The translations under genes were made by a program, and so were the position numbers. This document shows, one piece after another, positions 1,939 to 19,200 of a DNA stretch of 22,317 nt. The stretch lies in NCBI GenBank assembly GCA_964455675.1, contig CAYVYK010000003.1, positions 124,001 through 146,317 on the forward strand, in the 5' to 3' direction. Source of the stretch: an uncultured Methanosarcinales archaeon (lineage in GTDB: Archaea > Nanobdellota > Nanobdellia > Woesearchaeales > CAYVYK01). Position 1 is the stretch's first letter. Every line of letters begins with the position of its first letter. The notes below the pieces were generated by a model. That model had not been told where the DNA came from. It made no database searches and saw only the letters and a list, made by a program, of their open reading frames with translations.

Positions 1939-4900
1939 CTACACACCACCCCTTGCGCGCCCGAGAACTTCTTTCACCTGCGCCAGATGGGCGGCGAACG
2001 GCTCAAGGTACTCCCGCAAATGCGTCACACACGCACTCCTTGCTGGAGCAAGACTTGGAGACTTCCACTGCACGGCAGAAATCCTTCCTTCAACATTCAT
2101 CCATCGCACACCATGCTCTGGAATCAGGACCGATCCCAAACGGAACTGCAACTTCTGAAGATCCTCTCTTGTATCCTGCAATCTCACAAGGAACGCATGA
2201 TTCTGACGGAAAAGCTCCTCGATCGGACGAGGATCCTCGCGACCTCCATTCTGATTTGCCCGGAGAGCTTTGATATACGCGCTCAGGACCTTGTCCGCAT
2301 CACTCAATGCTTGGCGCAATTCCATAATCTGCAATTCCCTTAAGAGCACATCGGGCTTTCGCTGCATCAGTTTCTCAAATAGATCCTTCTTCTTTTGAAT
2401 AGTGGCATCATCCCACTGACGCATCGCGAGCACGGGCGCAGACACTCGCTCAATTCTTTCAAGTAATTCATCTGGAAGAGTTGGAGACACCTCTCCATAA
2501 GCCGTAACGTCACCAACTTCAAACTCAATAAAATTATGATCAAAGTAACTATGAGCATCCGTTTTTAGCACGTACAACTCCAGACGGTACATTCCTGGAT
2601 CTGCATGCAAGGGAACAGTGAACGTGAAGTTGATGTAGAACCTGCGATCCAATGAACGCTCAACAGGCTTATTGAGAGGGATATCAGTTGAACGGAACAC
2701 ACTGAATGGAATCCATGAACCTTCACGTCCAGACACCTCGCCCTTCCCTTCCCAATGCATCAGTGAGCCATCAGACCGCACGATCTGCGCGAGCACAAAT
2801 CCCCTTGGTTTGCCTTGCGCTTCCACCCTAAACGAGAGCGGATACGCGTGACTTGCTGAACCTCTCTGATATGGTATCCTGTACCGCGCACCAAGATTTG
2901 TGTCGTTTGGATGTTGATGGAATAATCCGCGCTGTCCCTTGTCAAGCCACGGGTTGATGAGAACCCACTGCTGTGAGGGATGATCAGTCACAATTATCTT
3001 CCGTCTCTTCTGCGCAATTTGTTGATCCCTGTGGAACACATTCACGATCACCCAATTCTCACCTGCTGCAAGTTCCTCAGCCTTTTTCATGAAGGCAATA
3101 TCCTCGCTCTCCGCATTCCATTGCGATTCATCCTGAACTCGGTCATGACCTGCTGTATACCACTTATATGAGAGGAATTTGTCCGGCGGATATATCTGAA
3201 TCTTCAAGACTTCGCTGCTCCCTGTCCGATACTCGTCCTCGCCAACCTCACCGTTGATACTGATCCGTGCATTATCAGCCTCGCTTGCGCGAGACTCTTT
3301 CATTATCGGCCGTATCTTCTGCGCAATGGGACGATTATTCTGATAAACTTCCATTACGATATACATTCTTCCGTCAGGAATTTCACGGCCTGGCAATCCA
3401 AACGAAAGCTCCCTACTCTGCTCTTCCCAGGTGCTACGTCTACGCGCTTGTTCAGGAGCAATCAGGTACCAAATACAGCGGACCGGAGCATTCGGAGGAT
3501 ACAGCTGCACGCGCATTTCCTCCATTGGTTTGAGCGAATACTCATCACTACCCACATCACCATTAATACTAATCGCAAGGTTGTCCTTCCCACGAGACTT
3601 GACCAGAATCGGGCGCTCAATGTGCGCTATCTGCTGATCCCTTTGGAATGCATCAACTATCACAAACGTTCTTCCGGCCTCTAAGGTGTTTGTTGCCTTC
3701 GCGAACTTAATGTCAAAGCTCTCAACCTTCCAGGAATTCTGATCGGACTTGCTGTGTTCAGGGACCGTATACCACTTGTACGAGAGATACTTGTCCGGCG
3801 GATAGATCTGGATGTTTAACTCCCTCTCATTTCCCACGACAAACTCATCAGCGCTCACGTCACCGTTGATGCTGATGCCAGCATTCGCTTGATTTTCCAC
3901 TTCTTTTCGGACCAATCTCGATTTTCGTGTCAGGAGAGTGCCGTGATGATAGACTTCTACGACAACAGCATTCTCACCGCTCGGCCAGCGGGGCACATCG
4001 ATCGTGAACTCCGGATCATTACTTACAGAATCTCCAAGGTTCTCGTCGGCGATGCGATCAGGAGGAACAATGAACCAGCGGCACGATACGTTTCTCCCTC
4101 TTGGCGGATATAGCTGAACCCTGAGCTCTTCCTCATTACTAATCCGGAATTCATCCTCACTCACGTCACCATTAATACTGATCTGAATAGCTGGCGGCCC
4201 TCGCTCTCTCCGCACTGCACGCATTACTCTTGCGATGCGAGTGTTCAATTGGAACACATCAACAATAACATAATTTCTTCCCTCAGGCCAGTCTGCCACT
4301 TTCATCTCGAAGAGCTGATCATTACTCACATTATTACTAGGACTCTCATCATTCATATTCTCTGGAGGGACAATATACCACCTGCACGAATACGGCCCTC
4401 TAGGCGGATAGAGCTGAACGCGAAGATCGCGCTCACTACCGATGACATACTCATCATCACTAACATCACCATTCACACTGATCTGCAACGCCGGCCCCGC
4501 AGTACGGAATAGGATGGAACACGGATCGGGGCGCACCAATCTCTCGCCAATTCTTGCCCGGAAATAGAACCAGAGCCTGCAGTTTCTCGTCATACGCATT
4601 CTTCGGGCTAATGCTTGCGTATCACGGCCGGAGAGAGCGTACAACAATTCCCCAGCAGTACCTCGATCCGATTGCGCGACCCTGCGTACGCTCAATGCAA
4701 TCCGGACTGGACGTCCGCCCTCGAGAAACACAAATGCTGCATCATCGAGGATCAACTGATTCGTGTTGATTGGTATTAGATAAAATCGTAACGATTCCCC
4801 AGGACGAGAATTGTCAGTTTCGTCTCCTGCATCATTAACTGCCTGTATTCTAAACGAAGGCTCACCAGGACGCGGGGGTTCACCTGGAGTATTCTCTACT

Positions 4901-5739
4901 GGAGGCTCTCCCGGAACTTCTGGAGGCCTATCAGCATCATCTCCGCCGATTTCCCTGCGTGGCCTTCTCCACCAATCACGCAACCTTCGCCACCATGGTT
5001 CTCGAGCAGGCCTTTCCGGTTCATCAACCTCTTCCCGGTCGCGGTTAAGCCAATTCCTGAACCTATTCCAAAGACCTCTCCCTCTGTTGCCCTGCGTTCC
5101 TCCCCTCGATAGACCAGACATTGCCAGGGCGAGAAGTGCCGCAAGAAGGAGCGCAAGCGCAAGGTATTTCCACCAGTCACCAATGCCGCCAGCTTCACTC
5201 GTGAGCCAGGCAAGGTACCCAAGGAGCGCAAGAGCCGCAGCTCCAAGCGCAATCCAAAGCCACTTGCCACCAAACTGATCCTTAAACGGGAAGTACAGGA
5301 GACTAAACAAAGTCGCCGCCGTCAGGAGTGCGCCCCAAAGACCTAGCGGCACAAGAACGGATTTGATAGCGGTTTCGACGCCGCGGAAACTGACGAGGTA
5401 AAAAATACCGTAAGCGCTCATGAGACCAAGCACGACAGCAAGAGCTTTGCCTGGCTTTGTTAGTCTGCCTCCAGAGAATCTTCCCTGCGTTTGACTTCCA
5501 ATCCCTTGACCCTCACGGAACGCAGGAATAAATCGAAGCGTCGCGGCGTAAATCGCTGTGAACGCCGCAAACGTTCCGATAAGGAGGGTGGAGACCATGA
5601 ATGTCGTACTTTGCGTTGAAGCAACAAGCATATTACCTGCAGTCGAGAAAATACCTGGAACCGTGAGCGCGTACGCACTCCTTGCCATGGCAGCGCCAAG
5701 CGCCGCCATCATGATCAACTTACGAGCGGCGCTTGCCAT
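1939..5739 (-). CDS. Large multi-pass membrane protein with tandem beta-rich (Ig-like) repeats and C-terminal coiled coil
   Basis: 1266 aa with SD AAGGAG before the ATG. Signal-like N-terminus and about 5 hydrophobic segments within residues ~1-210, an Arg/Trp/Pro-rich linker, five ISING(D/E)V...Q(L/I)YPP...W(Y/F) repeats, and a helical C-terminus. Confidence 0.85.
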   Translation of the reverse strand: MASAARKLIMMAALGAAMARSAYALTVPGIFSTAGNMLVASTQSTTFMVSTLLIGTFAAFTAIYAATLRFIPAFREGQGIGSQTQGRFSGGRLTKPGKALAVVLGLMSAYGIFYLVSFRGVETAIKSVLVPLGLWGALLTAATLFSLLYFPFKDQFGGKWLWIALGAAALALLGYLAWLTSEAGGIGDWWKYLALALLLAALLALAMSGLSRGGTQGNRGRGLWNRFRNWLNRDREEVDEPERPAREPWWRRLRDWWRRPRREIGGDDADRPPEVPGEPPVENTPGEPPRPGEPSFRIQAVNDAGDETDNSRPGESLRFYLIPINTNQLILDDAAFVFLEGGRPVRIALSVRRVAQSDRGTAGELLYALSGRDTQALARRMRMTRNCRLWFYFRARIGERLVRPDPCSILFRTAGPALQISVNGDVSDDEYVIGSERDLRVQLYPPRGPYSCRWYIVPPENMNDESPSNNVSNDQLFEMKVADWPEGRNYVIVDVFQLNTRIARVMRAVRRERGPPAIQISINGDVSEDEFRISNEEELRVQLYPPRGRNVSCRWFIVPPDRIADENLGDSVSNDPEFTIDVPRWPSGENAVVVEVYHHGTLLTRKSRLVRKEVENQANAGISINGDVSADEFVVGNERELNIQIYPPDKYLSYKWYTVPEHSKSDQNSWKVESFDIKFAKATNTLEAGRTFVIVDAFQRDQQIAHIERPILVKSRGKDNLAISINGDVGSDEYSLKPMEEMRVQLYPPNAPVRCIWYLIAPEQARRRSTWEEQSRELSFGLPGREIPDGRMYIVMEVYQNNRPIAQKIRPIMKESRASEADNARISINGEVGEDEYRTGSSEVLKIQIYPPDKFLSYKWYTAGHDRVQDESQWNAESEDIAFMKKAEELAAGENWVIVNVFHRDQQIAQKRRKIIVTDHPSQQWVLINPWLDKGQRGLFHQHPNDTNLGARYRIPYQRGSASHAYPLSFRVEAQGKPRGFVLAQIVRSDGSLMHWEGKGEVSGREGSWIPFSVFRSTDIPLNKPVERSLDRRFYINFTFTVPLHADPGMYRLELYVLKTDAHSYFDHNFIEFEVGDVTAYGEVSPTLPDELLERIERVSAPVLAMRQWDDATIQKKKDLFEKLMQRKPDVLLRELQIMELRQALSDADKVLSAYIKALRANQNGGREDPRPIEELFRQNHAFLVRLQDTREDLQKLQFRLGSVLIPEHGVRWMNVEGRISAVQWKSPSLAPARSACVTHLREYLEPFAAHLAQVKEVLGRARGGV
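2985..4490 (-). repeat. Five tandem ~100-aa intragenic repeats (~300-309 bp period)
   Basis: Units begin near 4488 (LQISVNGDV), 4188 (IQISINGDV), 3879 (GISINGDV), 3576 (AISINGDV) and 3267 (RISINGEV). Each contains DE(Y/F), Q(L/I)YPP, W(Y/F) and a V(I/V)V(D/E/N)V(F/Y)-like strand. Confidence 0.9.
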
Positions 5740-6534: not shown

Positions 6535-7386
6535 CTATACGTGCTCTTCGAGCAATGGTGTTATATCAATCTTACCGAGATCGTGCTTTGGCAACGGAAG
6601 CTTTAGTTGCGGAAGCTGTTCCTCATACAGCACTCGGTTCTCACGATAGAAGATTCCCGTCGGGATGCGGTCACCCCATTCCTGGGCTTTCTCCCACGCG
6701 AGCTTTCGGTTTGCAACATCATGATTCTCATCCTGCAACTTGTACACACGCTTCTGGAAATATTGGAACGTGTTCACGTTATTCCATGTCACGCATGGCT
6801 GGAGCACATCGACCAGAGCAAAACCCTTATGCTGAATCGCTTGCTCAATAAGCCATGTGAGATGCTTGACGTCACCTGCAAAACCTCGCGCAACAAACGT
6901 CGCGCCTTGCGTTATTGCGAGCGCGAGCGGGTTAACCGGTTCTTCAAGAGCCCCAAATGGCGAGGATGTGGATTTATACCCTTTTTCACTCGTCGGAGAA
7001 TACTGCCCCTTCGTGAGTCCATACACTTGATTATTATGCACGATGTACGCAATGTCATTATTCCTGCGCATGGCGTGCATGAAGTGCCCCATGCCAATAC
7101 CGTACCCATCGCCATCACCACCCGAACCTATCACCGTGAGTTCGGGATTCACGAGCTTAATGGATTCTGCGACAGGAAGCAAGCGCCCATGCAACGTTTC
7201 AAATCCGTATGTGCGCATGTAATGCGGCATCTTTCCGGAACACCCGATCCCCGAAACAAGACAAAGTTTATTGAGGTCAAGGTTCAGATTCACGATCGCG
7301 TTCTTGATCGCCATGAGGAGACCAAAGTTTCCACAGCCTGGACACCACTGCACCCTCTGCGGAGTTGTAAGGTCTTGCGCGTCCAT
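6535..7386 (-). CDS. korB: 2-oxoacid:ferredoxin oxidoreductase beta subunit (TPP-binding)
   Basis: WCPGCG, SGIGCS, LHGR, the GDGD...NN TPP motif, YGLTKGQ and LQPCVT. Substrate specificity cannot be determined. Confidence 0.95.
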   Translation of the reverse strand: MDAQDLTTPQRVQWCPGCGNFGLLMAIKNAIVNLNLDLNKLCLVSGIGCSGKMPHYMRTYGFETLHGRLLPVAESIKLVNPELTVIGSGGDGDGYGIGMGHFMHAMRRNNDIAYIVHNNQVYGLTKGQYSPTSEKGYKSTSSPFGALEEPVNPLALAITQGATFVARGFAGDVKHLTWLIEQAIQHKGFALVDVLQPCVTWNNVNTFQYFQKRVYKLQDENHDVANRKLAWEKAQEWGDRIPTGIFYRENRVLYEEQLPQLKLPLPKHDLGKIDITPLLEEHV

Positions 7387-9122
7387 CAGACCACCCCCCG
7401 TATGCGGTCAATCACGTCCTCAATCGCGAGGGCCTTACCTGTATACAACAACATCTGATCCTTGATGTCAATTCCCGTTTTCATCCGTATAACCTGGCCC
7501 GCCTGAGCGGTAGCATTATTCTCGATGAGCAATACCTTCTTCGCTGACTTGAGAATTCTCTCAACTGAAGATACCGGGAAAGGCGAGAAATACTTAATCT
7601 GCAAGAAATTCACTTTCTTTCCTTCCTTTGCGAGAATCTTCATCGCATCAAGGATCGCACCCTTTGTGCTGCCCCAACTGACGACTGTCAGATCAGCCTT
7701 CTCAGACCCATGCAGTGTATAACCCTTTGATTCAAGCTCTCGCTCGGCAAGCTGCAACTTCCTTGCGCGCTTATCAACCTGACGGATGCGCAAGCCAACA
7801 TCCTCAGTCGTATAACCATACTCATCATGCTCATAGGATGTTCCCTTGTTAATGCAATTTGGCTGACCTGGAATTGCGCGCGGGGAAATCCCATTGTCCG
7901 TTATCTGATATCGCTTGAAATCACGCTGCCTTGCAGCCTCATCGTCAGAAAGAAGCATTCCGCGGTCAATCTTCAGTTTTGATGTATCAAACCAGTCAAC
8001 ACAGAACGTTCCTTCACCAAGATGCTTATCCGTCAGCACGATCACCGGTGTCTGATATCTTTCTGCATAATTGAAAGCGTTAAACGTCTCGAAAAATGCC
8101 TCCTCTGCATCGCCAAAAGCAATCACAATCCTTGGGAACTCACCATGGCCTGCGTGCAGAACGAAGAGCAGCTCTCCTGCTTCAGTCATCGTCGGAAGTC
8201 CCGTACTTGGGCCGCTCCTCATCGCAAGGAGACAGACAAGGGGGACCTCGCTTAATCCTGCCATACTGAGCGCTTCCGTCATGAGGCAGAAACCGCCACC
8301 CGATGTCCCTGTCATCGACCTCGCGCCCGTGTATGCACCACCAATAATCATGTTCATTGCGGCAATCTCATCTTCGGACTGCTTGACAACCATGTCGTAC
8401 TCTCGCTCATGCGCAGCGAAAATACTAAGCAATGAGGATGCTGGCGTCATCGGATATGCAGCGTAAAACTTCAGACCTGCCTTGATAGCGCCGTAACTGG
8501 CGGCCTCATTACCTGAGATAATAAGTTTCCTTCCGGAAGATCTCGAAAACGTAAGCTGATATTCATAACCTCCAGCATACTGAGATTTTGCGACGTCATA
8601 ACCCCTACGCGCAGCCTCCACATTCATCGCAATCACATCACTACCTTTCTTCTTGTAATAATCACGCAAGAGATTATCAAGGACACTGAAATCAAGCTTC
8701 AGAAGGCCAACAACGGCTCCAAGAGAAACGGAGTTAATAATAAACTTAGGCCCCTTGAGGTCCCTCGCGATCTGATTCATTGGAACTTGAAACAATTGCA
8801 CGCCATCTGCATGCGCGTCCGGAACATCTTCCTTGTCATAAATGATCGCGCCGCCATCCATGAGTTCGCCCTTATGAAGATCGAACGTCTCCTTATTCAA
8901 CGCGATCACGCAATCAACCCGCTTCAGCGTCATGTGAACAGGCTGGTCCTCAACGCGGATGGTTTGATAGTTGTGACCTCCACGGATAAGGCTTGGATAA
9001 TCAGCAACAGCAACAGGATATAATCCCAGACGAGCGCAGAGTTTTGAGAACAATAATCCAGTCGTCATGATGCCAAAACCTGCTTCTCCGCCGACTAGTA
9101 CAGAGAACTGATTCGTCTTCAT
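7386..9122 (-). CDS. korA: 2-oxoacid:ferredoxin oxidoreductase alpha subunit (fused gamma-alpha)
   Basis: GGEAGFGI, DYPSLIRGGHN, SGNEA, YPMTPAS, EDEIAA, TSGGGF and RSGPSTGLPT. Start reassigned to the ATG at 9122 (MKTNQF), preceded by SD GAGGTG, which avoids overlap with ferredoxin. Confidence 0.95.
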   Translation of the reverse strand: MKTNQFSVLVGGEAGFGIMTTGLLFSKLCARLGLYPVAVADYPSLIRGGHNYQTIRVEDQPVHMTLKRVDCVIALNKETFDLHKGELMDGGAIIYDKEDVPDAHADGVQLFQVPMNQIARDLKGPKFIINSVSLGAVVGLLKLDFSVLDNLLRDYYKKKGSDVIAMNVEAARRGYDVAKSQYAGGYEYQLTFSRSSGRKLIISGNEAASYGAIKAGLKFYAAYPMTPASSLLSIFAAHEREYDMVVKQSEDEIAAMNMIIGGAYTGARSMTGTSGGGFCLMTEALSMAGLSEVPLVCLLAMRSGPSTGLPTMTEAGELLFVLHAGHGEFPRIVIAFGDAEEAFFETFNAFNYAERYQTPVIVLTDKHLGEGTFCVDWFDTSKLKIDRGMLLSDDEAARQRDFKRYQITDNGISPRAIPGQPNCINKGTSYEHDEYGYTTEDVGLRIRQVDKRARKLQLAERELESKGYTLHGSEKADLTVVSWGSTKGAILDAMKILAKEGKKVNFLQIKYFSPFPVSSVERILKSAKKVLLIENNATAQAGQVIRMKTGIDIKDQMLLYTGKALAIEDVIDRIRGVV

Positions 9123-9135
9123 ACTACACCTCTTT

Positions 9136-9354
9136 TTAGATAATCTTCTGATCCTTGTCATCATAGATATGGATGACATTCACGGGGCACGAGTCCGCGG
9201 CAGCCTTATTCGGAGCGTACTCCTCATCGGAGAGCTCCGTCTTCTTCGGCCTTGACTTGCCATCCTTCATCTCCCAGTTCGCAGGACACAAGTTCGCGCA
9301 GGCACCGCAGCCAATACAATTCTTCTCATCGTGAACAATCTTGAACTTTGCCAT
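9136..9354 (-). CDS. Single-cluster [4Fe-4S] ferredoxin
   Basis: CIGCGACANLCP...SCPVNVI. Likely start MAKFK at 9354. Minus-strand TTTAAATA at 9391-9384. Confidence 0.92.
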   Translation of the reverse strand: MAKFKIVHDEKNCIGCGACANLCPANWEMKDGKSRPKKTELSDEEYAPNKAAADSCPVNVIHIYDDKDQKII

Positions 9355-9383
9355 GTTTCCCCCGACTACCCCTCTCACCAAGT

Positions 9384-9502: not shown

Positions 9503-12340
9503 ATGGAAGGACAACCACTTTCTCGATTTACATCACTGCCATGGATTATTTCACTTGTTGTTATTGTGTCGTTTGCGGTACTCGCGATGGCACATGACAA
9601 AAGCATTGAAGCAGCACGATCGCCAAGCGCATTCGCGGTCGCTGGAGCGGAGATGCTTAGTATCGGCGAACCAACGAAGAAGACAACACAAACACTGCGC
9701 AGCATGACACTATCATCCCCAGATAAAGGAGGCGACGCACCAAGGTCCTTGTGCGGAAATGGTATCTGTGAGGAAGATGAAACCACAGAAACCTGCCCTG
9801 TTGACTGTCCGATGACACCCGAGTGCGGGAATGGAATCTGCGAACCACCAGAGGATCCAGAAACTTGTTCAGACTGCCTTGAGGACATCGTATGCGGTGA
9901 TGCAGTCTGCGAGTTTCCCGAAACTGCCGAGACTTGCCCTGAGGATTGTGCACCATCAGTGTTTGAGTGCAACGATCATACCTATTTGGACGCGCCAGGG
10001 GTTCGACCGGTTCTCGGAGATGCGCTCAACGTTGCTGTCAGTGAACTTGGAGAAGATGATTTGCCATTCCTCCTTGCGGATGGATGGGTTGAGCAGAACG
10101 AAGGGTCTGCCTTCCCGTATGAGCAGACTTTAGATATCAGTGGGTGCGCTAGATTTAGCTTTGGCACACCAGAAATCTTTGACAGTCGTACTCCGATCGT
10201 CCACTTGGACACAACATCATGCACAAGTTCAAATCCCATGTATACATACACCATGGATTTCGTGAACGCAAACCTTTCAGACTCTCCAGGTCGAGACATC
10301 AGGATTCTTGGACGAACCTATCTAGTTTCTGCAATCCCAACGGATGTATCATTCTCGAAACTCACGCTCTGGAGAGACTTCGCTTCTGACATCGTTAATG
10401 TAGGTGAGGAACGCGTTATCAACCATGTCACCATCCAGGTCCTTGGAGCGAACACTGATGAAGGCACAGCAACTATTGTTGTGGATGGAGAGACCATGCA
10501 AGTAGAAGAAGGAGACCACATAATCTCGTCCTTCTCTGATATGCATGTTTTCGTTAAGGATATCTTCCTGCAGACGGTACCCGTCCCCACAGCAGCAGTA
10601 GAATTCATCGTCTTTGCGGATGAGATCGTTCTGCAAAATGGCGAGATGGTAGTGGTGAATGGCGAGTCCTACGATGGCACTCGTGCGACATTCACAAGCT
10701 CATCCATCCTTGATAAAATCCAGGTCGCCCTGTTCCCGAACGAGCTCGGAATCCCTGGCGGACTTGAGGACGTTGAATACCTCGAAGCTGGAAACTATCC
10801 GATGCCCGACGCAGAAATGCACTTCAACCCTCTCTTTGACCCTGTGTGGATGTCACTTTTGTCTGACTTTGTTGGATTATCACAAATGGTGGATGATGAA
10901 AGTCGGGACATCATTACGTACCAGGGAACCGGATCAAAAGTGCAGATGAGCTTTGCGAACAAGGCAGAGGTTATTGCACAAGTCGACTTTAACTTTGAAG
11001 CGACAGAGGAAGGAAATCTCGGAAAGCTCAAGTATGGAACCAAATGGCTCCACTGGGATGAAAACGATGGAGATAATGTCACGGTTCCTGAGGATGACTA
11101 CTTCCTCCTCAATATGAACCATAATCCGACGTACACCTACGTGGTAAAGTTCACTTCGTACAGCAGTACCCCTGGAAGCGAGAAATTTGACTGTGCTGTT
11201 GTCGGCCTGCCGGGAGATCCCTGCGACTACATCGATGAACATCACGGAAAGATCACGCTTGGAGGAAAAACTATTGATGTGCTTATCTGGACATTTGGAC
11301 CAGACCCAACCCTCTCCATCCGAGCATTTGGACCCTACTTCCAAGGCGGTATCGGAAAGGAAATCTACACGATGAATGACGCCAAAATCACTCTTCAGAG
11401 AGGGAACCTGTACAGCTGGGGATACTCGATCAACAGGACGTCCATGATACAAGATGCGGAGCGAGCTGATTACACAAGCGATGAAGGTGAAATCATCACG
11501 GTGCAGATGCGATATGATCCATCCGAGGGAGCCGCAGAGCTGTACACCTATTGGTTTGAAGGAACATCGTTCCCACCAGTGCCTGACATGGACACGCACT
11601 CGCTGCAGGGCATGACTGATTTTGGAACATACGCAGTGCTTGACGCAGACACGTACAAGTCAGCATACCTCTACGTTCCGGATGGAGAAGTCAACATGCT
11701 ATTTGAGTTTAAGAGCGATATCTCCACAGATTGCAGCCCACCATACCAGTGCGTGGCGCATGAATGTGTCATGCCACCGCCATCCATCAAGTACCGTGTT
11801 TTTGTGACAAACAATTCCTGGACTGGCAATCTTGGAGGACTTGCCGGAGCGGACCAGAAGTGTGCCCAGGCGGCTACAAATGCAGGCCTTCGAGGAATAT
11901 GGAAAGCATGGATCAGTGACGACTGCAAGGATGCGAAGGAACGTCTCTATCACTCGACGTTCCCCTACGTGCGCCTTGATGGCGTTACCATCGCTAAGAA
12001 CTGGGATGATCTCACGGATGGGTCGCTTTCTTCCGCAATTCTCGTGACCGAATACGGACAGAATGCCACTGATTTCAGCAATGTCTGGACTGCCACGGAC
12101 GCGACCGGAACTGCCATACCAAGTCAATTCTATTGTGGAGGCTGGACAACACCATCTGGCCGCGGCGGAATTGGAGTATGGGATCATACAGACTCGGGAT
12201 GGACATACTATGGTGCTGTATCATGTGATGCACCAGGAAGGCTTTACTGCTTTGAACAGCCAAAGCTGCAGCCAATTCCCATGCCTGTGCCCCATGAACT
12301 CGTATCAGAGTCAGTTCCGAAGGCATACGCAGTTGAGTAA
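9503..12340 (+). CDS. Surface protein: N-terminal TM/signal, Cys-rich repeats, S-layer-like acidic beta-rich body, C-terminal DUF1554 (endostatin-like) domain
   Basis: Hydrophobic N-terminus and three CG(N/D)xxCE...ETCxxDC-type repeats. The acidic middle (LPFLLADG...YEQTL...YTYTMDF) resembles archaeal S-layer proteins. The C-terminus VFVT...GNLGGLAGADQKC...WKAWIS...VWT...LYCFEQ is characteristic of DUF1554. Confidence 0.8.
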   Translation: MEGQPLSRFTSLPWIISLVVIVSFAVLAMAHDKSIEAARSPSAFAVAGAEMLSIGEPTKKTTQTLRSMTLSSPDKGGDAPRSLCGNGICEEDETTETCPVDCPMTPECGNGICEPPEDPETCSDCLEDIVCGDAVCEFPETAETCPEDCAPSVFECNDHTYLDAPGVRPVLGDALNVAVSELGEDDLPFLLADGWVEQNEGSAFPYEQTLDISGCARFSFGTPEIFDSRTPIVHLDTTSCTSSNPMYTYTMDFVNANLSDSPGRDIRILGRTYLVSAIPTDVSFSKLTLWRDFASDIVNVGEERVINHVTIQVLGANTDEGTATIVVDGETMQVEEGDHIISSFSDMHVFVKDIFLQTVPVPTAAVEFIVFADEIVLQNGEMVVVNGESYDGTRATFTSSSILDKIQVALFPNELGIPGGLEDVEYLEAGNYPMPDAEMHFNPLFDPVWMSLLSDFVGLSQMVDDESRDIITYQGTGSKVQMSFANKAEVIAQVDFNFEATEEGNLGKLKYGTKWLHWDENDGDNVTVPEDDYFLLNMNHNPTYTYVVKFTSYSSTPGSEKFDCAVVGLPGDPCDYIDEHHGKITLGGKTIDVLIWTFGPDPTLSIRAFGPYFQGGIGKEIYTMNDAKITLQRGNLYSWGYSINRTSMIQDAERADYTSDEGEIITVQMRYDPSEGAAELYTYWFEGTSFPPVPDMDTHSLQGMTDFGTYAVLDADTYKSAYLYVPDGEVNMLFEFKSDISTDCSPPYQCVAHECVMPPPSIKYRVFVTNNSWTGNLGGLAGADQKCAQAATNAGLRGIWKAWISDDCKDAKERLYHSTFPYVRLDGVTIAKNWDDLTDGSLSSAILVTEYGQNATDFSNVWTATDATGTAIPSQFYCGGWTTPSGRGGIGVWDHTDSGWTYYGAVSCDAPGRLYCFEQPKLQPIPMPVPHELVSESVPKAYAVE
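9752..9949 (+). repeat. Three Cys-rich ~23-aa repeats
   Basis: CGNGICEEDETTETCPVDC, CGNGICEPPEDPETCSDC and CGDAVCEFPETAETCPEDC. Confidence 0.9.
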
Positions 12341-12839: not shown

Positions 12840-13814
12840 TTGCTGTACAGCATTAGAAAAGAGGTGGTGGGATCGTTCCTCTCGGCAGTCCAGAAGGACA
12901 ACCAGCTGTATGCGCCTGTGCGTCAAGGAACTGTTCGTTTCTCAATGATAGAGGATCCGAATACGATATGCCTTGATGAGAACACCGTCATGCCGCTCAA
13001 ACAATTCTTCTTTCCGCAGCGTAGTGTGATCTTTTCCTTTCAGGGAACAAAAATCACTATCCCCAGGGAAAACATACCTTCACGCGTGTTCTTCGGCGTG
13101 CGAAGATGCGACCTGAATGCAATCAGGCATCAGGACATGATGTACATGGAGAAATTCAAGGATCCAATCTATATAGCACGACGGCAGGCAAGCGTTCTCA
13201 TCGGGTACCACTGCCCTATGCCGCCAAGCAAGTACTGCTTCTGTGGTTCCCATAATCTTGGGGACTATTACGATCTTATGTTTTTCGACCGAGGATCAGA
13301 GTATCATGTCCACATCGGTTCACTGCGTGGAGAAGAGTTCTTCAAAAAGTATACGAATCACTTCACGCCTATCAATAAAGAGATCACCGAACAAGATAAA
13401 AAAATACCTGGCTCTGACCGACTGAAACGAACGAACATCAAAGACCTTTACCATCATCCTGACTGGATACCGAAAGGAGTGGACCGGTGCATCAGCTGTG
13501 CGGCATGTACAACACTATGCCCAACATGCTATTGCTCAGAAATGCACGATGAGCAACACGTGGGAGCAACAAAGATCGGGAACCGAGTACGGACATGGAG
13601 CTCATGCCAGCTCAAGGAATTCACAAAAGTTGCAGGAGGCCATACATTCCGCGAAAGCCGAGAGGGAAGATTCAAGCACCGTATCTACCACCAGATGGAA
13701 TACTTCAAACAAAAGAACGGTGTGACACTCTGCGTTGGATGCGGACGCTGCATCCAGTCATGCCCAACGGACATCGACTGGGTGGACATCATCAACAAGA
13801 TGGGTGACAGATGA
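12840..13814 (+). CDS. hydB: Group 3b sulfhydrogenase beta subunit (4Fe-4S dicluster, AsrA-like)
   Basis: GVRRCD, CFC, CISCAACTTLCPTCYC, WSSC and CVGCGRCIQSCP. TTG start, with TTTTTAAA about 35 bp upstream. Confidence 0.9.
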   Translation: MLYSIRKEVVGSFLSAVQKDNQLYAPVRQGTVRFSMIEDPNTICLDENTVMPLKQFFFPQRSVIFSFQGTKITIPRENIPSRVFFGVRRCDLNAIRHQDMMYMEKFKDPIYIARRQASVLIGYHCPMPPSKYCFCGSHNLGDYYDLMFFDRGSEYHVHIGSLRGEEFFKKYTNHFTPINKEITEQDKKIPGSDRLKRTNIKDLYHHPDWIPKGVDRCISCAACTTLCPTCYCSEMHDEQHVGATKIGNRVRTWSSCQLKEFTKVAGGHTFRESREGRFKHRIYHQMEYFKQKNGVTLCVGCGRCIQSCPTDIDWVDIINKMGDR

Positions 13815-14617
13815 TGGCTGCGCGATCGAAACTCATCCCCTGGCCCGTGAAGATCATCAATCGGGTTCAAGAAAGCGAAACGAACTTCACGATAACCCTT
13901 GACGCCAAACTCAAGCATGATCCAGGCCAATTCGTGCAAGTCGGAATCCCAGGAGTTGGAGAATCACCAATCTCGTTTGCATCATACTCAAGCAAGTTCG
14001 TAAAACTCAATATCAGCATGGTCGGAAAAGTCACGATTGCGCTCTCAAAACTGAAAGTCGGTGAAACCGTCCTCATCCGAGGACCATATGGGCACGGCTA
14101 TCCCCTTGACAAACTCTACGGAAACACCGTGTATTTCGTCGGGGGTGGATGCGGCATCGCACCATTGAAAGGAGCGATCGACTACGTCGAACACTATCGA
14201 GAAAAATATCGGGATGTCGTGCTTTTCCTTGGATACCGAAGCCCGAACGATATTCTCTTCAAGAAAGAAATCGAGGAATGGAGAACTAAATACCATCTCA
14301 CAGTGACCGTCGACAAAAATCCCCCAGGAACCTGCTACGAAGGTGCAGTTGGCTTTGTGACGGATGCAGTGAAAGCCGCAAGCATGAATACTGAAGGGAG
14401 CATTGCGATCGTGTGCGGACCACCCATGATGATGAAAAACGCGATCATCGCACTCAAGAGCAAAGGATTCCGGGATGAGCAGATCTTCCTGAGCCAAGAA
14501 CGGCTCATGTACTGTGGCATCGGCGTATGCTGCCACTGCATGATCCAAGACAAGTTCTGCTGCGAGGACGGGCCGGTCTTCAGGTATGATGAAATCAAGG
14601 GGTATGAGTTTGACTAA
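13811..14617 (+). CDS. hydG: Group 3b sulfhydrogenase gamma subunit (FAD/NAD(P)-binding, 2Fe-2S)
   Basis: PGQF, GESPIS, RGPYGHG, GGGCGIAP, CGPPMM and ERLMYCGIGVCCHC...CEDGPVF. ATGA overlap with the upstream gene. Confidence 0.92.
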   Translation: MMAARSKLIPWPVKIINRVQESETNFTITLDAKLKHDPGQFVQVGIPGVGESPISFASYSSKFVKLNISMVGKVTIALSKLKVGETVLIRGPYGHGYPLDKLYGNTVYFVGGGCGIAPLKGAIDYVEHYREKYRDVVLFLGYRSPNDILFKKEIEEWRTKYHLTVTVDKNPPGTCYEGAVGFVTDAVKAASMNTEGSIAIVCGPPMMMKNAIIALKSKGFRDEQIFLSQERLMYCGIGVCCHCMIQDKFCCEDGPVFRYDEIKGYEFD

Positions 14618-15365
14618 ACCAAGAATAGGCATATTCGGCCTTACCGGATGCGCAGGATGCCAGCTCAGCATCATCTTCAACGAAGATGAGATTCTCAATT
14701 TGCTTGATGTCATCGACATTCGCGCATTCCCATTCATTAAAGGAAACAACGACGAGGAAAACTTTGACATCGTGTTCATGGAAGGACTCGTGGCAGACAA
14801 AGAAGACCTTGAAACACTCAAGAAAATACGTGGCAAGACGAAAAAGCTCGTCGCTCTGGGAGCATGCGCACACACGGGATGCATCCCTGCGTATCGCAAC
14901 TACACTATGCCATCACCCTACGAACACCTCTACTACAATAAACGCGAACGGATCAAGGATGTAAAACCCTCTGCGATCAACGAACATGTCACCGTTGATT
15001 ACGTCATCCCCGGGTGTCCGCCCGACAAAAAGGAAATTCTCGCATTCATCCAGGCAGTTGCCCACGGCATCGAGCCAAAATCCTACACGAGCCCAGTATG
15101 CGTGGAGTGCAGGCGCAACAACAACGAATGCCTGCTCATCAAAGGAAAACCGTGCCTTGGGCCCATCACACGCGGAGGATGCAATTCCGTATGTGTGAAC
15201 GGAAAACTCGAGTGCTGGGGCTGTCGCGGACCGACGGATGACGCGAACTTCGCGCTCATGGTACGCCTGCTGCGGCAAAAAGGGTATAGCGATGACTTCA
15301 TCAGGAAGCGGATGAGAAGCTTTGCAGGAGTCCTTTATCCAGAAGACAAGGTGCTTTTCCCATGA
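14604..15365 (+). CDS. hydD: [NiFe] hydrogenase group 3b small (delta) subunit
   Basis: GCAGCQ, EG, GACAHTG, PGCPP, VCVEC, CLGPIT and CWGCRG. Start reassigned to MSLTKP at 14604, after SD AGGGGT. Confidence 0.93.
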   Translation: MSLTKPRIGIFGLTGCAGCQLSIIFNEDEILNLLDVIDIRAFPFIKGNNDEENFDIVFMEGLVADKEDLETLKKIRGKTKKLVALGACAHTGCIPAYRNYTMPSPYEHLYYNKRERIKDVKPSAINEHVTVDYVIPGCPPDKKEILAFIQAVAHGIEPKSYTSPVCVECRRNNNECLLIKGKPCLGPITRGGCNSVCVNGKLECWGCRGPTDDANFALMVRLLRQKGYSDDFIRKRMRSFAGVLYPEDKVLFP

Positions 15366-16639
15366 CTGAAATAACACTCAACCACATCACGAAGATTGAG
15401 GGGCATGCAACGCTCACGCTCAAGATCGAGAATGGCAAAGTCACGACGTGCGAGCTTGGCTCGATTGAAGGAAGCAGATATTTTGAAGGGATGCTCGTCG
15501 GCCGCATGTACCATGAGGCAAACGAAATCACGTCACGGATCTGCGGCATCTGCAGCGCGGCGCACGTGCTTTCCGCAACAATGGCGATCGAACGGGCACT
15601 CAACATCCAATGCTCACCACAGACAGTGGAACTACGCAAACTCCTTGCGCTCGCAGAACGCATCAGAAGCCACGCGACACACCTCTACTTCCTTGCGCTG
15701 CCTGACTATCTCGGATATGAATCTGCCCTCGCAATGCTCCCAAAGTACAAGAAGGAAGTTGGTGCTGCGCTACGCATGATGAAGGTTGGAAACGAAATGA
15801 CGCGGATCGTTGGAGGAAGAGACCTTCACCCTGTCAGTATCACGATCGGTGGATTCCTCAAGGTTCCGAAAAAACAGGAACTCCTCATGCTTATGAGGCA
15901 GCTCGAAGGAATCAAGAGCGACGCGCTCGCCACATGCGAACTATTCCTCGGCCTAAAATTTCCCGACATGACCTTGCCTGGCGCAACATGGTTCTCCCTT
16001 ACTGACCCTGTGCAATACGCAATCATCGATGGAAGTGTTGCGTCAGGAAACGAGCACTTTGCGCCGCAGCAATTCCACGATTTCTTCAAAGAATACCATG
16101 AGGAGTATTCAACGGCAAACTTCGTCGTACGAGATGGCAAGACCTATTTTGTCGGAGCACTAGCGCGTATCAATAACAGCAGGGGCAAGCTATACACCGA
16201 TGCGCGGAACATGCTCGACCGCAGCGGAATCTTGTTTCCGTCCACAAATCCATACGCAAACAACATCTGCCAGGCAGTCGAACTAGTGCATTCAATCGAC
16301 CATGCCATACAAATATGCCGAGATCTCAACGTACAGCAAGAAGAGCCAGTAAAATATGCGATCAAATCAGGCCACGGCATCCATGTCACGGAAGCACCGC
16401 GAGGACTCAACTGGCACGAATACACTATCGATGACAAAGGACTAATCACGCAAGCAAACATCGTGACGCCAACAGCGCAGAATCTGCGAAGCATGAACGA
16501 TGATATACGAAGGCTCCTCTCACCAGAACTCCTTCGGAAATCCAAAGATGAAGTGGTCCTTGAGGTAGAGAAGCTGATACGTAACTATGATCCATGCTTC
16601 TCGTGCTCAACACATTTCCTCAAGGTCAAATGGCTCTAG
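15362..16639 (+). CDS. hydA: [NiFe] hydrogenase group 3b large (alpha) subunit
   Basis: KIEGH, L1 motif RICGICSAAH, EAPRG, TPT, and L2 motif DPCFSCSTH, followed by a 7-aa cleavable tail FLKVKWL. Confidence 0.96.
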   Translation: MTEITLNHITKIEGHATLTLKIENGKVTTCELGSIEGSRYFEGMLVGRMYHEANEITSRICGICSAAHVLSATMAIERALNIQCSPQTVELRKLLALAERIRSHATHLYFLALPDYLGYESALAMLPKYKKEVGAALRMMKVGNEMTRIVGGRDLHPVSITIGGFLKVPKKQELLMLMRQLEGIKSDALATCELFLGLKFPDMTLPGATWFSLTDPVQYAIIDGSVASGNEHFAPQQFHDFFKEYHEEYSTANFVVRDGKTYFVGALARINNSRGKLYTDARNMLDRSGILFPSTNPYANNICQAVELVHSIDHAIQICRDLNVQQEEPVKYAIKSGHGIHVTEAPRGLNWHEYTIDDKGLITQANIVTPTAQNLRSMNDDIRRLLSPELLRKSKDEVVLEVEKLIRNYDPCFSCSTHFLKVKWL

Positions 16640-16649
16640 GGGTGAACTT

Positions 16650-17528
16650 ATGAACACAAAAGGAATCTATCTTATCCTCACCGCTGCAATCATTTCAGGT
16701 TTCTCAATATTCCTCAATAGTCGTGCTGTTATAGGCATCGATAGCTCGATCTTCACGCTTGCGAAGATTGTGCTTGTGGCAATGGCACTGCTCTGTATCA
16801 TTCTTGGCACCATGGCATTTCGTGACATCACGCGTTTATCAGCGACAGAATGGGGAATGCTCTCCCTTGTTGGACTCATAGGTGGATCAGTGCCGTTTCT
16901 CCTGTTCTTTAAGGGACTGCAGATGACGACAGGATCAACTGCTGGACTCATCCAGAAAACACTCTTTATCTTCGTGATTGTGTTCGCAATCTTTTTCCTC
17001 AAAGAGAAGATCACGAAATCATTTGCTGCCGGAGCTGCACTACTCCTGCTCTCCACGTTCCTCATCACGCCATTCAACGGCTTGCAAACAGGACACGTGC
17101 TCGTGCTCACTGCCGCGATCCTCTGGGCGGGTGAATACGTCCTCTCAAAACACATGATTACGCACGTGCCTGCACTCGTCGTTGCATTTGGACGAATGGC
17201 GTTTGGATCGCTCTTCATCCTTCTCTATATCATCATTGCCGGCAAGGGTAACATGCTGCTTCCAAGCGTTGGATCGCACGTGGGTTGGATACTCATCACA
17301 AGTCTATTCCTTCTCGCGTATGTCATAACATTCTATACAGGGCTTGCAGGGGTCCCCGTGAGCACTGCGGCATGTATCCTTACCATCAGCGCGCCAATCT
17401 CCACGCTCCTATCGCTCTTTACCGGCGGAACAATCAGTATACTGCAGACACTTGGCATTGCCACTGGAATTCTTGGAGCAATCACCATCCTATGGACAAC
17501 TCGAGCATCTTATCCATCACGCGCATGA
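16650..17528 (+). CDS. EamA/DMT-family transporter (~10 TM)
   Basis: Two EamA-like halves (e.g. AIFFLKEKI, VAFGRMAFG). Start MNTKG at 16650 after SD GGGGTGA, 10 bp downstream of hydA. Confidence 0.88.
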   Translation: MNTKGIYLILTAAIISGFSIFLNSRAVIGIDSSIFTLAKIVLVAMALLCIILGTMAFRDITRLSATEWGMLSLVGLIGGSVPFLLFFKGLQMTTGSTAGLIQKTLFIFVIVFAIFFLKEKITKSFAAGAALLLLSTFLITPFNGLQTGHVLVLTAAILWAGEYVLSKHMITHVPALVVAFGRMAFGSLFILLYIIIAGKGNMLLPSVGSHVGWILITSLFLLAYVITFYTGLAGVPVSTAACILTISAPISTLLSLFTGGTISILQTLGIATGILGAITILWTTRASYPSRA

Positions 17529-18232
17529 ACGGAATCGAAATTGCAGCACGGTTCTCGTACAGCGTCAACAAGCTTGGATACTGCGGACCAGACGATGCAA
17601 ATACGCTCACGGAAAAGTACCTTAGGGGACAAACCACCGATAGCGAACTCAAGACCGCACTCTGCAAGTTCCAGGCAATGTACCCCTATCTTTGCGCAAT
17701 AGCAAGTAAGCATGGCTTGCAGCCATTTGACAAAAAGGTCGTGGAGGCATACTGGATCGGCAACGACCTTCTCGATACATTTACACCTGACGACATAAAA
17801 GGAATACTCACTACCCTCATGAACCGAGGGCTACCACCGTCCATCGGCAAGCCGCTCCTATCCCGTGTGCGGGAAGGGCTCTTTCCCCATCACAACCTTC
17901 ACGTCTTTTTCATCGGCGTTGGACAAATGACTGGCTCTGTGCCAAGCACTATCGAGACGATGCAGCAATGCCGGGTGACTTCTGGCATCGTTCATTTGGT
18001 CGAGAAAGACACTCTCACTGTTGAAACAGATATGACCATCTACGATAAGGGAGTATGGAAGACTGGGAAAGGTTTGCGACGGAAAATAGGATATCATCCG
18101 CTTTTCCTTCCATCAGTCAAGATCGGAGATATTGTCGCAGTGCACTGGAATTTTGCACCAATGATCCTTACTAAGCAACACCAGAAAAATCTCCGGAATG
18201 CTACTTCATCACTTTTTGCGGCTCTCTCGTAG
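17525..18232 (+). CDS. DUF6390-like protein with C-terminal HypC-like domain
   Basis: ARFSYSVNKLGYCGP, MYPYL, VVEAYWIGN, PHHNLHVF, CRV and GDIVAVHW; family recognised from memory of these motifs. Start reassigned to 17525 (ATGA overlap with the transporter). Confidence 0.8.
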   Translation: MNGIEIAARFSYSVNKLGYCGPDDANTLTEKYLRGQTTDSELKTALCKFQAMYPYLCAIASKHGLQPFDKKVVEAYWIGNDLLDTFTPDDIKGILTTLMNRGLPPSIGKPLLSRVREGLFPHHNLHVFFIGVGQMTGSVPSTIETMQQCRVTSGIVHLVEKDTLTVETDMTIYDKGVWKTGKGLRRKIGYHPLFLPSVKIGDIVAVHWNFAPMILTKQHQKNLRNATSSLFAALS

Positions 18233-18431
18233 CTTCCTTATAGAGTTTTAGGGCGGCACGGGCCTCTTTTGAAGGAACCTTCTGCAGAACAATGCCTGCT
18301 TGCACAATCACGTACTGCCCCACGCGATATGACGACTCAAGAAGCTTTGCCCTGCGGCGCTCAACCTCATAATCGATCAAGGCGGTGTCACCATCGATTG
18401 AAATAATTCTCCCGGGAACAGCAAGGCACAT
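18201..18431 (-). CDS. hypC: HypC/HybG/HupF hydrogenase chaperone (conserved His replaced by Gln)
   Basis: N-terminal MCLAVPG. VGQYVIVQAG replaces the canonical vGdyVlvHxG. Has its own TATA box (ATATAAAAA, 18461-18453). Confidence 0.9.
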   Translation of the reverse strand: MCLAVPGRIISIDGDTALIDYEVERRRAKLLESSYRVGQYVIVQAGIVLQKVPSKEARAALKLYKEATREPQKVMK

Positions 18432-18491: not shown

Positions 18492-18878
18492 CTATGTACT
18501 CTTCATCATACGCTTGAGGATCACGGCTGTTTTTGCAGCGAGGTCCTGCACGTCCCCCCTCATTGGCACAGCAACAATACGAACCCTCCTCTTTTTCCCA
18601 GACATTCGCTCCTGAAGTTTCAGAAAGAACGCAAGATCAAAGTCATGAAGCGAAACCATCTTTGGATCCGCAAGATGGTCGATATCCGTGATTAGTATCG
18701 GTTCGTGAATATTCTGTGCGACGTCAAGAATGATGAACTCTCTGTCAATATACGAAGCAATGATCTCGGGAGAATCGCATGGAATAAACGTGAATCCTTT
18801 CAACTTCAGAACACTTGCAATACTCTTCGCCATTCTATCTTCTTCGACTAAAGCATTGCCAAAACACAAAACATCCAC
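18492..18878 (-). CDS. Hydrogenase maturation endopeptidase (HycI/HybD-like)
   Basis: VLCFGNALVEED, IILDV and SLHDFDL match the GNxLxxDD, D and sxH motifs. Probable GTG start at 18878 just after the hypA stop; the ATG at 18896 is an alternative. Confidence 0.8.
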   Translation of the reverse strand: MDVLCFGNALVEEDRMAKSIASVLKLKGFTFIPCDSPEIIASYIDREFIILDVAQNIHEPILITDIDHLADPKMVSLHDFDLAFFLKLQERMSGKKRRVRIVAVPMRGDVQDLAAKTAVILKRMMKST

Positions 18879-18879
18879 A

Positions 18880-19200
18880 TCATTCAACCTCAACATTCCT
18901 GAGCACGATCTCGTCACCACTTGTTAAGGGAGGTACCTGTGTGCAGAGAGGGCATTCATACATCGCAATATCATGACCCCGCTCAAGGATCTTTGGTGCG
19001 CCAACATATCCACAGGAACACTCGATCGCTGCCTTAACAATCTCCATATCGACGGGATAGGGAACAATGCTCCGGAGTGTTGCATGCAGTTCCTCGGGAG
19101 GTACATGAGCCAACTCTCCAACAGAAATAGACATTCTTGTTACTTTCCCATGACTCTCGGCTTCCGCAACAAGCCTTCGGGCAAAAACCATCTCATGCAT
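18880..19200 (-). CDS. hypA: Nickel metallochaperone HypA
   Basis: N-terminal MHE Ni motif, VGEL, Zn site CSCG...CPLC, and SGDEIVL. Confidence 0.93.
   Translation of the reverse strand: MHEMVFARRLVAEAESHGKVTRMSISVGELAHVPPEELHATLRSIVPYPVDMEIVKAAIECSCGYVGAPKILERGHDIAMYECPLCTQVPPLTSGDEIVLRNVEVE

What the first reader, a model, noticed from the sequence alone, without database searches (positions are those of the whole stretch)
17969..18232. DUF6390-like protein contains an internal HypC-like domain retaining both Cys and His
Seen in sequence: residues 149 onward, CRVTSGIVHLVEKDTLTVE, align without gaps to the neighbouring HypC N-terminus CLAVPGRIISIDGDTALID (C, G and DT identical, hydrophobic pattern kept). 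VKIGDIVAVHWNFA matches the HypC vGdyVlvHxGfA motif and is followed by a C-terminal helix. The N-terminal domain adds candidate metal ligands (GYCGP, PHHNLH). Established: HypC acts through a free N-terminal Cys2 and a conserved His. Inference: this is a fused scaffold in which the internalised Cys and extra Cys/His residues form an Fe- or Ni-binding site.
Basis: partly seen in the sequence, partly recalled or inferred. Interest (0 to 1): 0.75.

Follow-up and report, generated by a model that had tools for sequence, protein, structure and literature searches.

The report
HypC-derived stand-in for hydrogenase maturases
This small microbe has a nickel-iron hydrogenase but no detectable copy of the three genes thought essential for building the enzyme's iron-cyanide-carbonyl centre; it has instead an unstudied protein whose tail is a copy of the iron carrier HypC, encoded hard against a membrane transporter gene, and the pair likely takes up that iron unit ready-made and hands it on.

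Summary
Observation confirmed. The gene at 17525-18232 (+) is DUF6390. Residues 149-234 are a HypC-type domain (profile match 96%, E 1.7e-9, Cys149=Cys2, His207=the HypC His; top structural hit HypC, Z 5.8, rmsd 1.9). Cys20, His123, Cys149 and His207 are kept in 149-150 of 150 relatives, and coevolution suggests they share one pocket; metal binding is untested. The larger point is the setting: the 99%-complete genome has a group 3b hydrogenase with intact cofactor motifs but no HypD, HypE, HypF or HypB found. Among 269 hydrogenase-bearing genomes in three samples, 79 had DUF6390 only, 146 HypD only, none both, 44 neither, with the two states interleaved on the hydrogenase tree. An EamA permease gene abuts DUF6390 in 76 of 84 loci and is once fused. 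Best reading (0.5): a permease-fed scaffold that salvages a pre-made Fe(CN)2CO unit and passes it to a His-less HypC. Against: DUF6390 also sits inside complete hyp operons on two named plasmids, and HypC's His is shown to be an interface residue. Not found in ten literature searches. This scan has already reported the same module on other genomes (23 earlier notes).

The parts
17525..18232 (+). DUF6390 gene, 235 aa: helical N-domain (1-148) plus HypC-like domain (149-234)
   Evidence: (PF19927 E 7.8e-40)
17969..18232 (+). HypC-like OB-fold domain with Cys149 (codon 17969) and His207-Trp208 (18143-18148), with an insertion of about 15 residues and a C-terminal helix
17525..17968 (+). all-helical N-domain with Cys20 (17582), VVEAYWIGN, His122/His123/His126 (17888-17902); no clear fold match found
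16650..17528 (+). EamA/DMT permease, 292 aa; its stop codon overlaps the DUF6390 start (ATGA)
18201..18431 (-). free HypC, 76 aa, Cys2 kept, conserved His replaced by Gln44; tail-to-tail overlap with DUF6390
18492..18920 (-). divergent hydrogenase maturation protease-like gene
   Evidence: TIGR00072 E 0.015, below cut-off; recurs in related loci
18880..19200 (-). HypA nickel chaperone
15362..16639 (+). group 3b [NiFe]-hydrogenase large subunit, four Cys and cofactor-pocket motifs intact, 7-residue C-terminal extension
12840..15365 (+). beta, gamma and delta subunits of the group 3b hydrogenase

Best explanation
DUF6390 is a HypC-derived protein (new helical domain plus an internal HypC domain) that occurs in place of HypD in these genomes, and it likely acts as a holding scaffold that receives a ready-made iron-cyanide-carbonyl unit, likely brought in by the adjacent EamA permease, and would pass it to the free HypC for insertion into the hydrogenase. 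Shown: the HypC-type domain; four near-invariant Cys/His residues; EamA and DUF6390 genes abutting or fused; no HypD, HypE, HypF, HypB, HydG, CarB or carbamate kinase found in this genome; exclusion with HypD in three genome samples; intact cofactor motifs in the hydrogenases served. Inferred: Cys20 (in the role of HypD Cys41) and Cys149 bind the iron with His123 and His207 as ligands or hydrogen-bond donors, making a one-chain mimic of the HypC-HypD site; the permease imports rather than exports; the cargo is Fe(CN)x(CO) released by other cells; the free HypC lost its His because it no longer docks on HypD but keeps Cys2 to deliver; HypA and the protease then finish maturation as usual.
For: Domain and residues. 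Own genome, 99.02% complete: no HypD, HypE, full HypF, HypB, HydG, CarB or carbamate kinase. HypD in 1 of 50 and HypF in 1 of 54 DUF6390 genomes; HypE in 0 of 5. Thermoplasmata-centred sample: of 161 hydrogenase genomes 32 DUF only, 122 HypD only, 0 both, 7 neither. Small-genome bacterial phylum: of 56, 25/11/0/20 (49, 54, 55). Own order: of 52, 22/13/0/17 (94-96). On an 87-row large-subunit tree the HypD label needs 13 changes, 11 forced by starred branches, so this is not one loss in one clade. EamA within 20 bases in 76 of 84 loci, fused in P0079, with many invariant polar residues across 111 copies, and not found in 9 of 9 loci checked from HypD-bearing operons. All 70 large subunits in DUF6390 loci keep the four Cys, Glu13, Arg347 and Pro370-Thr371. 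Free HypC lacks the His in 67 of 80 copies in DUF6390 loci, keeps it in 8 of 9 from HypD genomes; that His serves HypD binding (PMC9002611, passages).
Against: No metal, cargo, transport direction or hydrogenase activity is shown. DUF6390 with all four residues lies inside complete hypFCDE clusters, with no EamA annotated in the stretches read, on plasmids of Mycobacterium intracellulare and Sulfobacillus acidophilus, and genome G058 has both systems, so it is not only a substitute. 44 of 269 hydrogenase genomes had neither gene by these searches. Internal Cys is Ser in 3 of 9 short homologues and 1 of 5 in a third family. 13 of 80 HypC copies in DUF6390 loci keep the His (79). Four relatives are fused to DNA-binding domains, which points to a sensing role too. 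A free, stable Fe(CN)2CO species outside proteins is not known to me (recalled). The structural Z of 5.8 is modest and its first aligned pair is 147 with 2, not 149 with 2.
Confidence: 0.5

Rival explanations
1. The module builds the iron unit itself by a new route: EamA imports a small ligand source (cyanide, thiocyanate, an iron-cyanide complex) and DUF6390 assembles Fe(CN)2CO on its Cys/His site with ambient CO.
For: Same exclusion with HypD and same gene linkage; no carbamoyl-phosphate source found in the genome; the N-domain has no clear fold match, so new chemistry is not excluded.
Against: No Fe-S or nucleotide-binding family is matched by DUF6390, whereas HypCD needs a [4Fe-4S] cluster and ATP (PMC11565642, PMC12134894, passages); a 150-170 aa homologue fills the same slot, small for a synthase.
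Confidence: 0.2
2. DUF6390 is a general accessory or storage protein of hydrogenase maturation (like HoxV/HupK) that survives loss of hypDEF; the cofactor reaches these cells some other way (for example from a host), or the enzymes are inactive or repurposed.
For: DUF6390 inside full hyp operons in two named organisms and both systems in G058; fusions to transcription regulators.
Against: It does not explain 0 of 146 HypD-only-type genomes carrying DUF6390 across three samples, repeated switching on the tree, the dedicated permease, or full conservation of the active site; DUF6390 genomes include 1.4-2.9 Mb Thermoplasmata-class genomes.
Confidence: 0.15
3. DUF6390 and EamA handle nickel (import and chaperoning in place of HypB), and the hydrogenases have an altered centre without cyanide.
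For: Cys/His-rich site; HypB over cut-off in 0 of 6 DUF6390 genomes; this window's large subunit has Asn350 where 69 of 70 have Leu (80).
Against: HypB is also missing in 3 of 5 HypD genomes that lack DUF6390; HypA is present; the domain derives from an iron carrier; the Arg and Pro-Thr that contact cyanide in known enzymes (roles recalled) are kept in 70 of 70.
Confidence: 0.1
4. The missing hyp genes are an artefact of incomplete assemblies or undetected divergent copies.
For: Most genomes searched are metagenome assemblies; 44 of 269 show neither gene.
Against: Own genome 99.02% complete; G016 is one contig, 100%, with no HypD, HypE or HypF; the same search finds HypD in 122 of 129 DUF6390-free hydrogenase genomes of the same class (45).
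Confidence: 0.05

Closest known systems
HypC/HybG/HupF chaperones (PF01455, TIGR00074; PDB 2z1c, 2ot2, 3vyr)
   Same: OB fold with C-terminal helix, Cys at the start of the domain and His in the GDxVxxH motif.
   Different: Cys is internal, not a free N-terminus; 15-residue insertion; Trp after the His; fused behind a 148-residue helical domain with further invariant Cys and His; below the Pfam cut-off.
HypC-HypD scaffold with HypE/HypF (E. coli, T. kodakarensis)
   Same: Predicted role: holding Fe(CN)2CO between two cysteines near histidines, then hand-over through HypC (PMC11565642, PMC8692609, passages).
   Different: No HypD sequence match, no Fe-S motif family, no HypE/HypF in the genome; coupled to a permease.
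HoxV/HupK intermediate Fe(CN)2CO scaffolds
   Same: A non-synthesising holder of the iron unit between source and large subunit (PMC12134894, passages).
   Different: HoxV/HupK resemble hydrogenase large subunits and work downstream of HypCDEF; DUF6390 does not match PF00374 and mostly occurs without HypDEF.
Group 3b hydrogenases of CPR bacteria and Woesearchaeota (PMC7304191, PMC8421398)
   Same: The enzyme served; PMC7304191 notes a context family with some homology to HypC.
   Different: In the passages read neither paper mentions maturation, missing hypDEF, DUF6390 or the permease.
Archaeal [FeFe]-hydrogenases without HydEFG (PMC11216029)
   Same: Hydrogenases in small archaea lacking the known maturases, with an alternative route proposed.
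   Different: Other enzyme class; no candidate genes named in the passages read.

Membership tests
DUF6390 (PF19927) | Pfam score above the gathering cut-off over the full model | tested here: met
   137.3 bits against 25, model 4-233 of 244
HypC/HybG/HupF | OB fold plus C-terminal helix | tested here: met
   top hit in Foldseek and VIA-align, Z 5.8, rmsd 1.9, 71 of 71; profile match E 1.7e-9 (85)
HypC/HybG/HupF | conserved His near position 45-51 | tested here: met
   His207 in 150 of 150, aligned to the motif
HypC/HybG/HupF | Cys2 as free N-terminal residue | tested here: not met
   the equivalent Cys149 is internal; no stop or split seen in the aligned relatives
HypC/HybG/HupF | score above family cut-off, stand-alone 70-100 aa protein | tested here: not met
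   16 bits against 28.5; no NCBIfam hit; 235 aa
HypC/HybG/HupF | carries Fe(CN)2CO and binds the apo large subunit | not testable with these tools
HypD | sequence match to PF01924 | tested here: not met
   no match anywhere in the genome or for the protein
HypD | HypD fold in the N-domain | tested here: inconclusive
   N-domain model is all-helical; best Z 4.0 to acyl carrier proteins, no clear match
HoxV/HupK | similarity to hydrogenase large subunits | tested here: not met
   no PF00374 match for the protein
Group 3b [NiFe]-hydrogenase (the neighbour) | four subunits and L1/L2 cysteine motifs | tested here: met
   best NCBIfam and PDB matches are sulfhydrogenase subunits, under the equivalog cut-offs; motifs intact
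Group 3b [NiFe]-hydrogenase (the neighbour) | NiFe(CN)2CO centre and H2 activity | not testable with these tools
   needs purification and infrared spectroscopy

The most novel reading that the evidence does not exclude
Many archaea and ultra-small bacteria scavenge the organometallic Fe(CN)2CO unit from their surroundings or hosts through a dedicated EamA permease and a DUF6390-type receiver, a salvage pathway that has swapped with HypD/E/F many times and makes the hydrogenase cofactor a traded community good.
Probability: 0.4. Interest if true: 0.92.

Novelty: categorically new. Interest (0 to 1): 0.78.

Why it matters
A 2025 review states that six Hyp proteins are necessary to make the NiFe(CN)2CO centre (PMC12134894, abstract and passages). 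Here 79 of 269 hydrogenase-bearing genomes sampled keep an intact-looking enzyme with no HypD and carry this module instead. Either they mature the enzyme by an undescribed route or the many group 3b hydrogenases annotated in DPANN and CPR genomes do not work as assumed. The module is three small genes, so the question can be tested directly in a laboratory E. coli hyp mutant. If a permease plus one small scaffold can load a hydrogenase from a supplied iron unit, it would also simplify recombinant hydrogenase production. The protein taken alone is a new variant of HypC; the class given here refers to the HypDEF-free system.

Tried and rejected
The 19-residue gapless alignment as evidence on its own: 43 of 2740 ORFs do as well. 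A known fold for the N-domain: none with E under 1.9 in Foldseek, best Z 4.0; the Atlas gave no usable hit; this does not show the fold is new. HydG as an alternative CO/CN source: not found over cut-off in 5 of 5 genomes, none at all in G000. DUF6390 as HypB replacement: HypB is missing in HypD genomes too. Direct homology of the 250-260 aa family (A3) to DUF6390: only 3%; it links weakly through the short family (59%, E 9e-5). Binding of DUF6390 to HypC: the complex predictor was not available, so this is open. Ligand distances in the model: no coordinates were available. Expression: no RNA holder was listed. Literature: 'DUF6390' 0 papers; NiFe+maturation+hypC+EamA+hydrogenase 0; NiFe+HypD+HypE+HypF+'non-canonical maturation' 0; searches listed no paper whose title or abstract start describes the module. 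Subscription journals and supplements were not searched, and a supplement of PMC7304191 may list the family. The careful tree did not finish; the quick tree was used.

Full report
The gene. The finding lies in an ORF whose real start is the ATG at 17525, giving 235 residues that match Pfam DUF6390 at E 7.8e-40. Upstream on the same strand are the four genes of a group 3b [NiFe]-hydrogenase (12840-16639; best matches sulfhydrogenase subunits) and an EamA permease whose stop overlaps the DUF6390 start (ATGA). Converging on it from the other strand are hypA, a divergent maturation protease and hypC. The named closest relatives are from Woesearchaeota, so the host is probably one; no call names it.

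The HypC-like domain is real. The 19-residue match quoted has 4 identities and is matched or beaten by 43 of 2740 ORFs of the genome, so alone it proves little; with a HypC profile DUF6390 ranks first among those ORFs but only at E 0.11. Family-level tests are clear. A profile of 150 relatives finds HypC structures as its two best PDB sequences. HypC against DUF6390 profiles gives 96.3%, E 1.7e-9, pairing Cys2 with Cys149 and the motif position with His207. The model (pLDDT 97.7, pTM 0.94) has HypC 2z1c first in Foldseek (E 0.017) and in the wide search (Z 5.8, rmsd 1.9, 71 of 71 residues, model 147-234), HypC 2ot2 second (Z 4.5) and the first unrelated OB fold at 4.2. Z 5.8 is modest by that tool's own note, and its range starts at 147 against 2, so the exact overlay of the cysteines rests on the sequence profiles.

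Candidate ligands. In 150 aligned relatives Cys20 is kept in 149, His123 in 150, Cys149 in 149, His207 in 150, Trp208 in 149; His122 in 124 and His126 in 112. Direct-coupling analysis on 296 sequences (effective 262, shallow) recovers expected strand pairs and ranks F10-A205 first, with F10-M213, Q148-N209, Y55-H126 and, weakly, P22-V127: the helix leading to Cys20 packs on the strand carrying His207, and the Cys149 and His207 flanks touch. This suggests one pocket but is not a distance measurement. The N-domain folded alone (pLDDT 95.8) had no clear match. In known HypCD the unit is modelled between HypC Cys2 and HypD Cys41 with hydrogen bonds from a HypD His (PMC11565642, passages; PMC8692609, passages). 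The HypC His is near Cys2 but was shown to be needed for HypD binding (PMC9002611, passages), so His207 need not be a ligand.

The genome lacks the usual machinery. G000 (1.72 Mb, 99.02% complete) gave no HypD, no HypE, only short sub-cut-off pieces for HypF and HypB, no HydG, no CarB and no carbamate kinase. HypF was in 1 of 54, the same genome G058 (37), which has a second hydrogenase operon beside its hyp genes. HypE was in 0 of 5, including a one-contig 100% genome.

Controls. Class sample around G031 (titled Thermoplasmata; 251 genomes, centre included): 161 had a large subunit, 33 DUF6390, 124 HypD; among the 161, 32 DUF6390 only, 122 HypD only, 0 both, 7 neither. Phylum sample around G070 (301 mostly 0.5-1.5 Mb genomes, presumably Patescibacteria, not named by the tool): 56 had the large subunit, all 25 DUF6390 genomes are among them; HypD, searched in those 56 only, was in 11, none with DUF6390. 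Own order: 53 of 141 had the large subunit (this tally includes unpublished G691, left out afterwards); of 52, DUF6390 22 (one weak, E 3e-6), HypD 13, both 0, neither 17. Total 269: 79, 146, 0, 44. Kin are not independent, so Fisher values overstate; but on a quick tree of 87 large subunits from the order and the bacterial sample the HypD label needs 13 changes and DUF6390 16, 11 each forced by starred branches. The tree cannot tell gain from loss.

The 'neither' class is partly explained. In 9 of the 17 order genomes a 150-180 aa protein sits beside HypC (and mostly EamA) and is homologous to DUF6390 over its length (98.4%, E 8e-15), with an invariant Cys and two His; its internal HypC-type Cys is Ser in 3 of 9. 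In 5 of the bacterial loci read, a 250-260 aa protein with a HypC-like His motif fills the slot after EamA; it links only weakly.

The partners. EamA was found in 78 of 84 DUF6390 loci, within 20 bases in 76 (135), fused in P0079 (32). 111 full copies share many invariant residues. It was not found in 9 of 9 loci checked from HypD-bearing operons, and 5 HypD genomes gave only distant EamA matches or none. Free HypC lacks the His in 67 of 80 copies in DUF6390 loci (Gln in 58), and has it in 8 of 9 from HypD genomes; 5 of 109 hits without a Met-Cys start were dropped. I ran this count after reading earlier notes that mention a His-less HypC. All 70 full large subunits from DUF6390 loci keep Glu13, the four Cys, Pro-Arg-Gly, Pro370-Thr371 (80); that Arg and Thr contact cyanide is recalled, not from a call.

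Against a pure substitute. DUF6390 follows hypD directly on a Mycobacterium intracellulare plasmid and lies in a full hyp cluster of Sulfobacillus acidophilus; both keep the four residues and no EamA is annotated in the stretches read. Four relatives are fused to GntR, PadR, ArsR or XRE DNA-binding domains. So the domain has a life beside the normal pathway, perhaps as store or sensor, as HoxV/HupK are intermediate holders (PMC12134894, passages). I did not sample those phyla.

Mechanism. The simplest account is salvage: cells that cannot make cyanide ligands yet keep a normal pocket must get the unit from outside; a coupled permease and a HypC-derived two-Cys, two-His receiver fit that, and a HypC that keeps Cys2 but drops its HypD-binding His fits delivery. 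I give it 0.5; new synthesis from imported small ligands 0.2; general accessory with another source or inactive enzymes 0.15; nickel handling 0.1; artefact 0.05. Transport direction, cargo and metal are all inferred.

Literature seen: passages of PMC7304191, PMC8421398, PMC10811913, PMC11565642, PMC10134863, PMC11216029, PMC11606122, PMC8692609, PMC9002611, PMC12134894; no whole text or supplement. No description of DUF6390 or the module came up in ten searches. This scan has 23 earlier notes with the same module on other genomes; my salvage reading was entered before I saw them, and their agreement is not independent evidence.

Noticed in passing
L147:5308-6609 (+), L156:836-2146 (+): HypC fused to a HydE-like radical SAM enzyme (TIGR03956 269 and 254 bits, cut-off 254.6) near a group 3b large subunit in genomes where HypD, DUF6390 and HydG were not found (55, 49, 67): possibly another route linking [FeFe] maturase chemistry to [NiFe] maturation.
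   Followed up: partly
L160:13309-13851, L161:2701-3195, L165, L167, L169, L170, L172, L175, L177: Short DUF6390 homologues (150-180 aa) missed by the genome searches with the Pfam model or my profile, beside HypC.
   Followed up: yes
L142:6637-7413, L143, L144, L146, L153:10007-10765; L149:5672-6298: Unannotated 200-260 aa proteins with a HypC-like His motif in the DUF6390 slot; no NCBIfam match for the three scanned.
   Followed up: partly
P0093, P0099, P0103, P0122: DUF6390 fused behind GntR, PadR, ArsR and XRE DNA-binding domains, suggesting use as a sensor.
   Followed up: no
window 16409-16411 (HydA residue 350): Asn where the other 69 of 70 large subunits have Leu three residues after the conserved Arg; that Leu lines the CO pocket in known enzymes (recalled).
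   Followed up: no
window 6535-9381 (-): 2-oxoacid:ferredoxin oxidoreductase genes and a ferredoxin close to the hydrogenase, a likely fermentative context.
   Followed up: no
window 1939-5739 (-) and 9503-12340 (+): A 1266-aa membrane protein with about five internal repeats beginning ISINGDV and no clear Pfam match, and a 945-aa surface-type protein with Cys-rich CGNGICE repeats and a weak endostatin/DUF1554 domain.
   Followed up: no
L013:8750-9385; G679, G667, G669: A second DUF6390-like ORF or fragment in some genomes.
   Followed up: no
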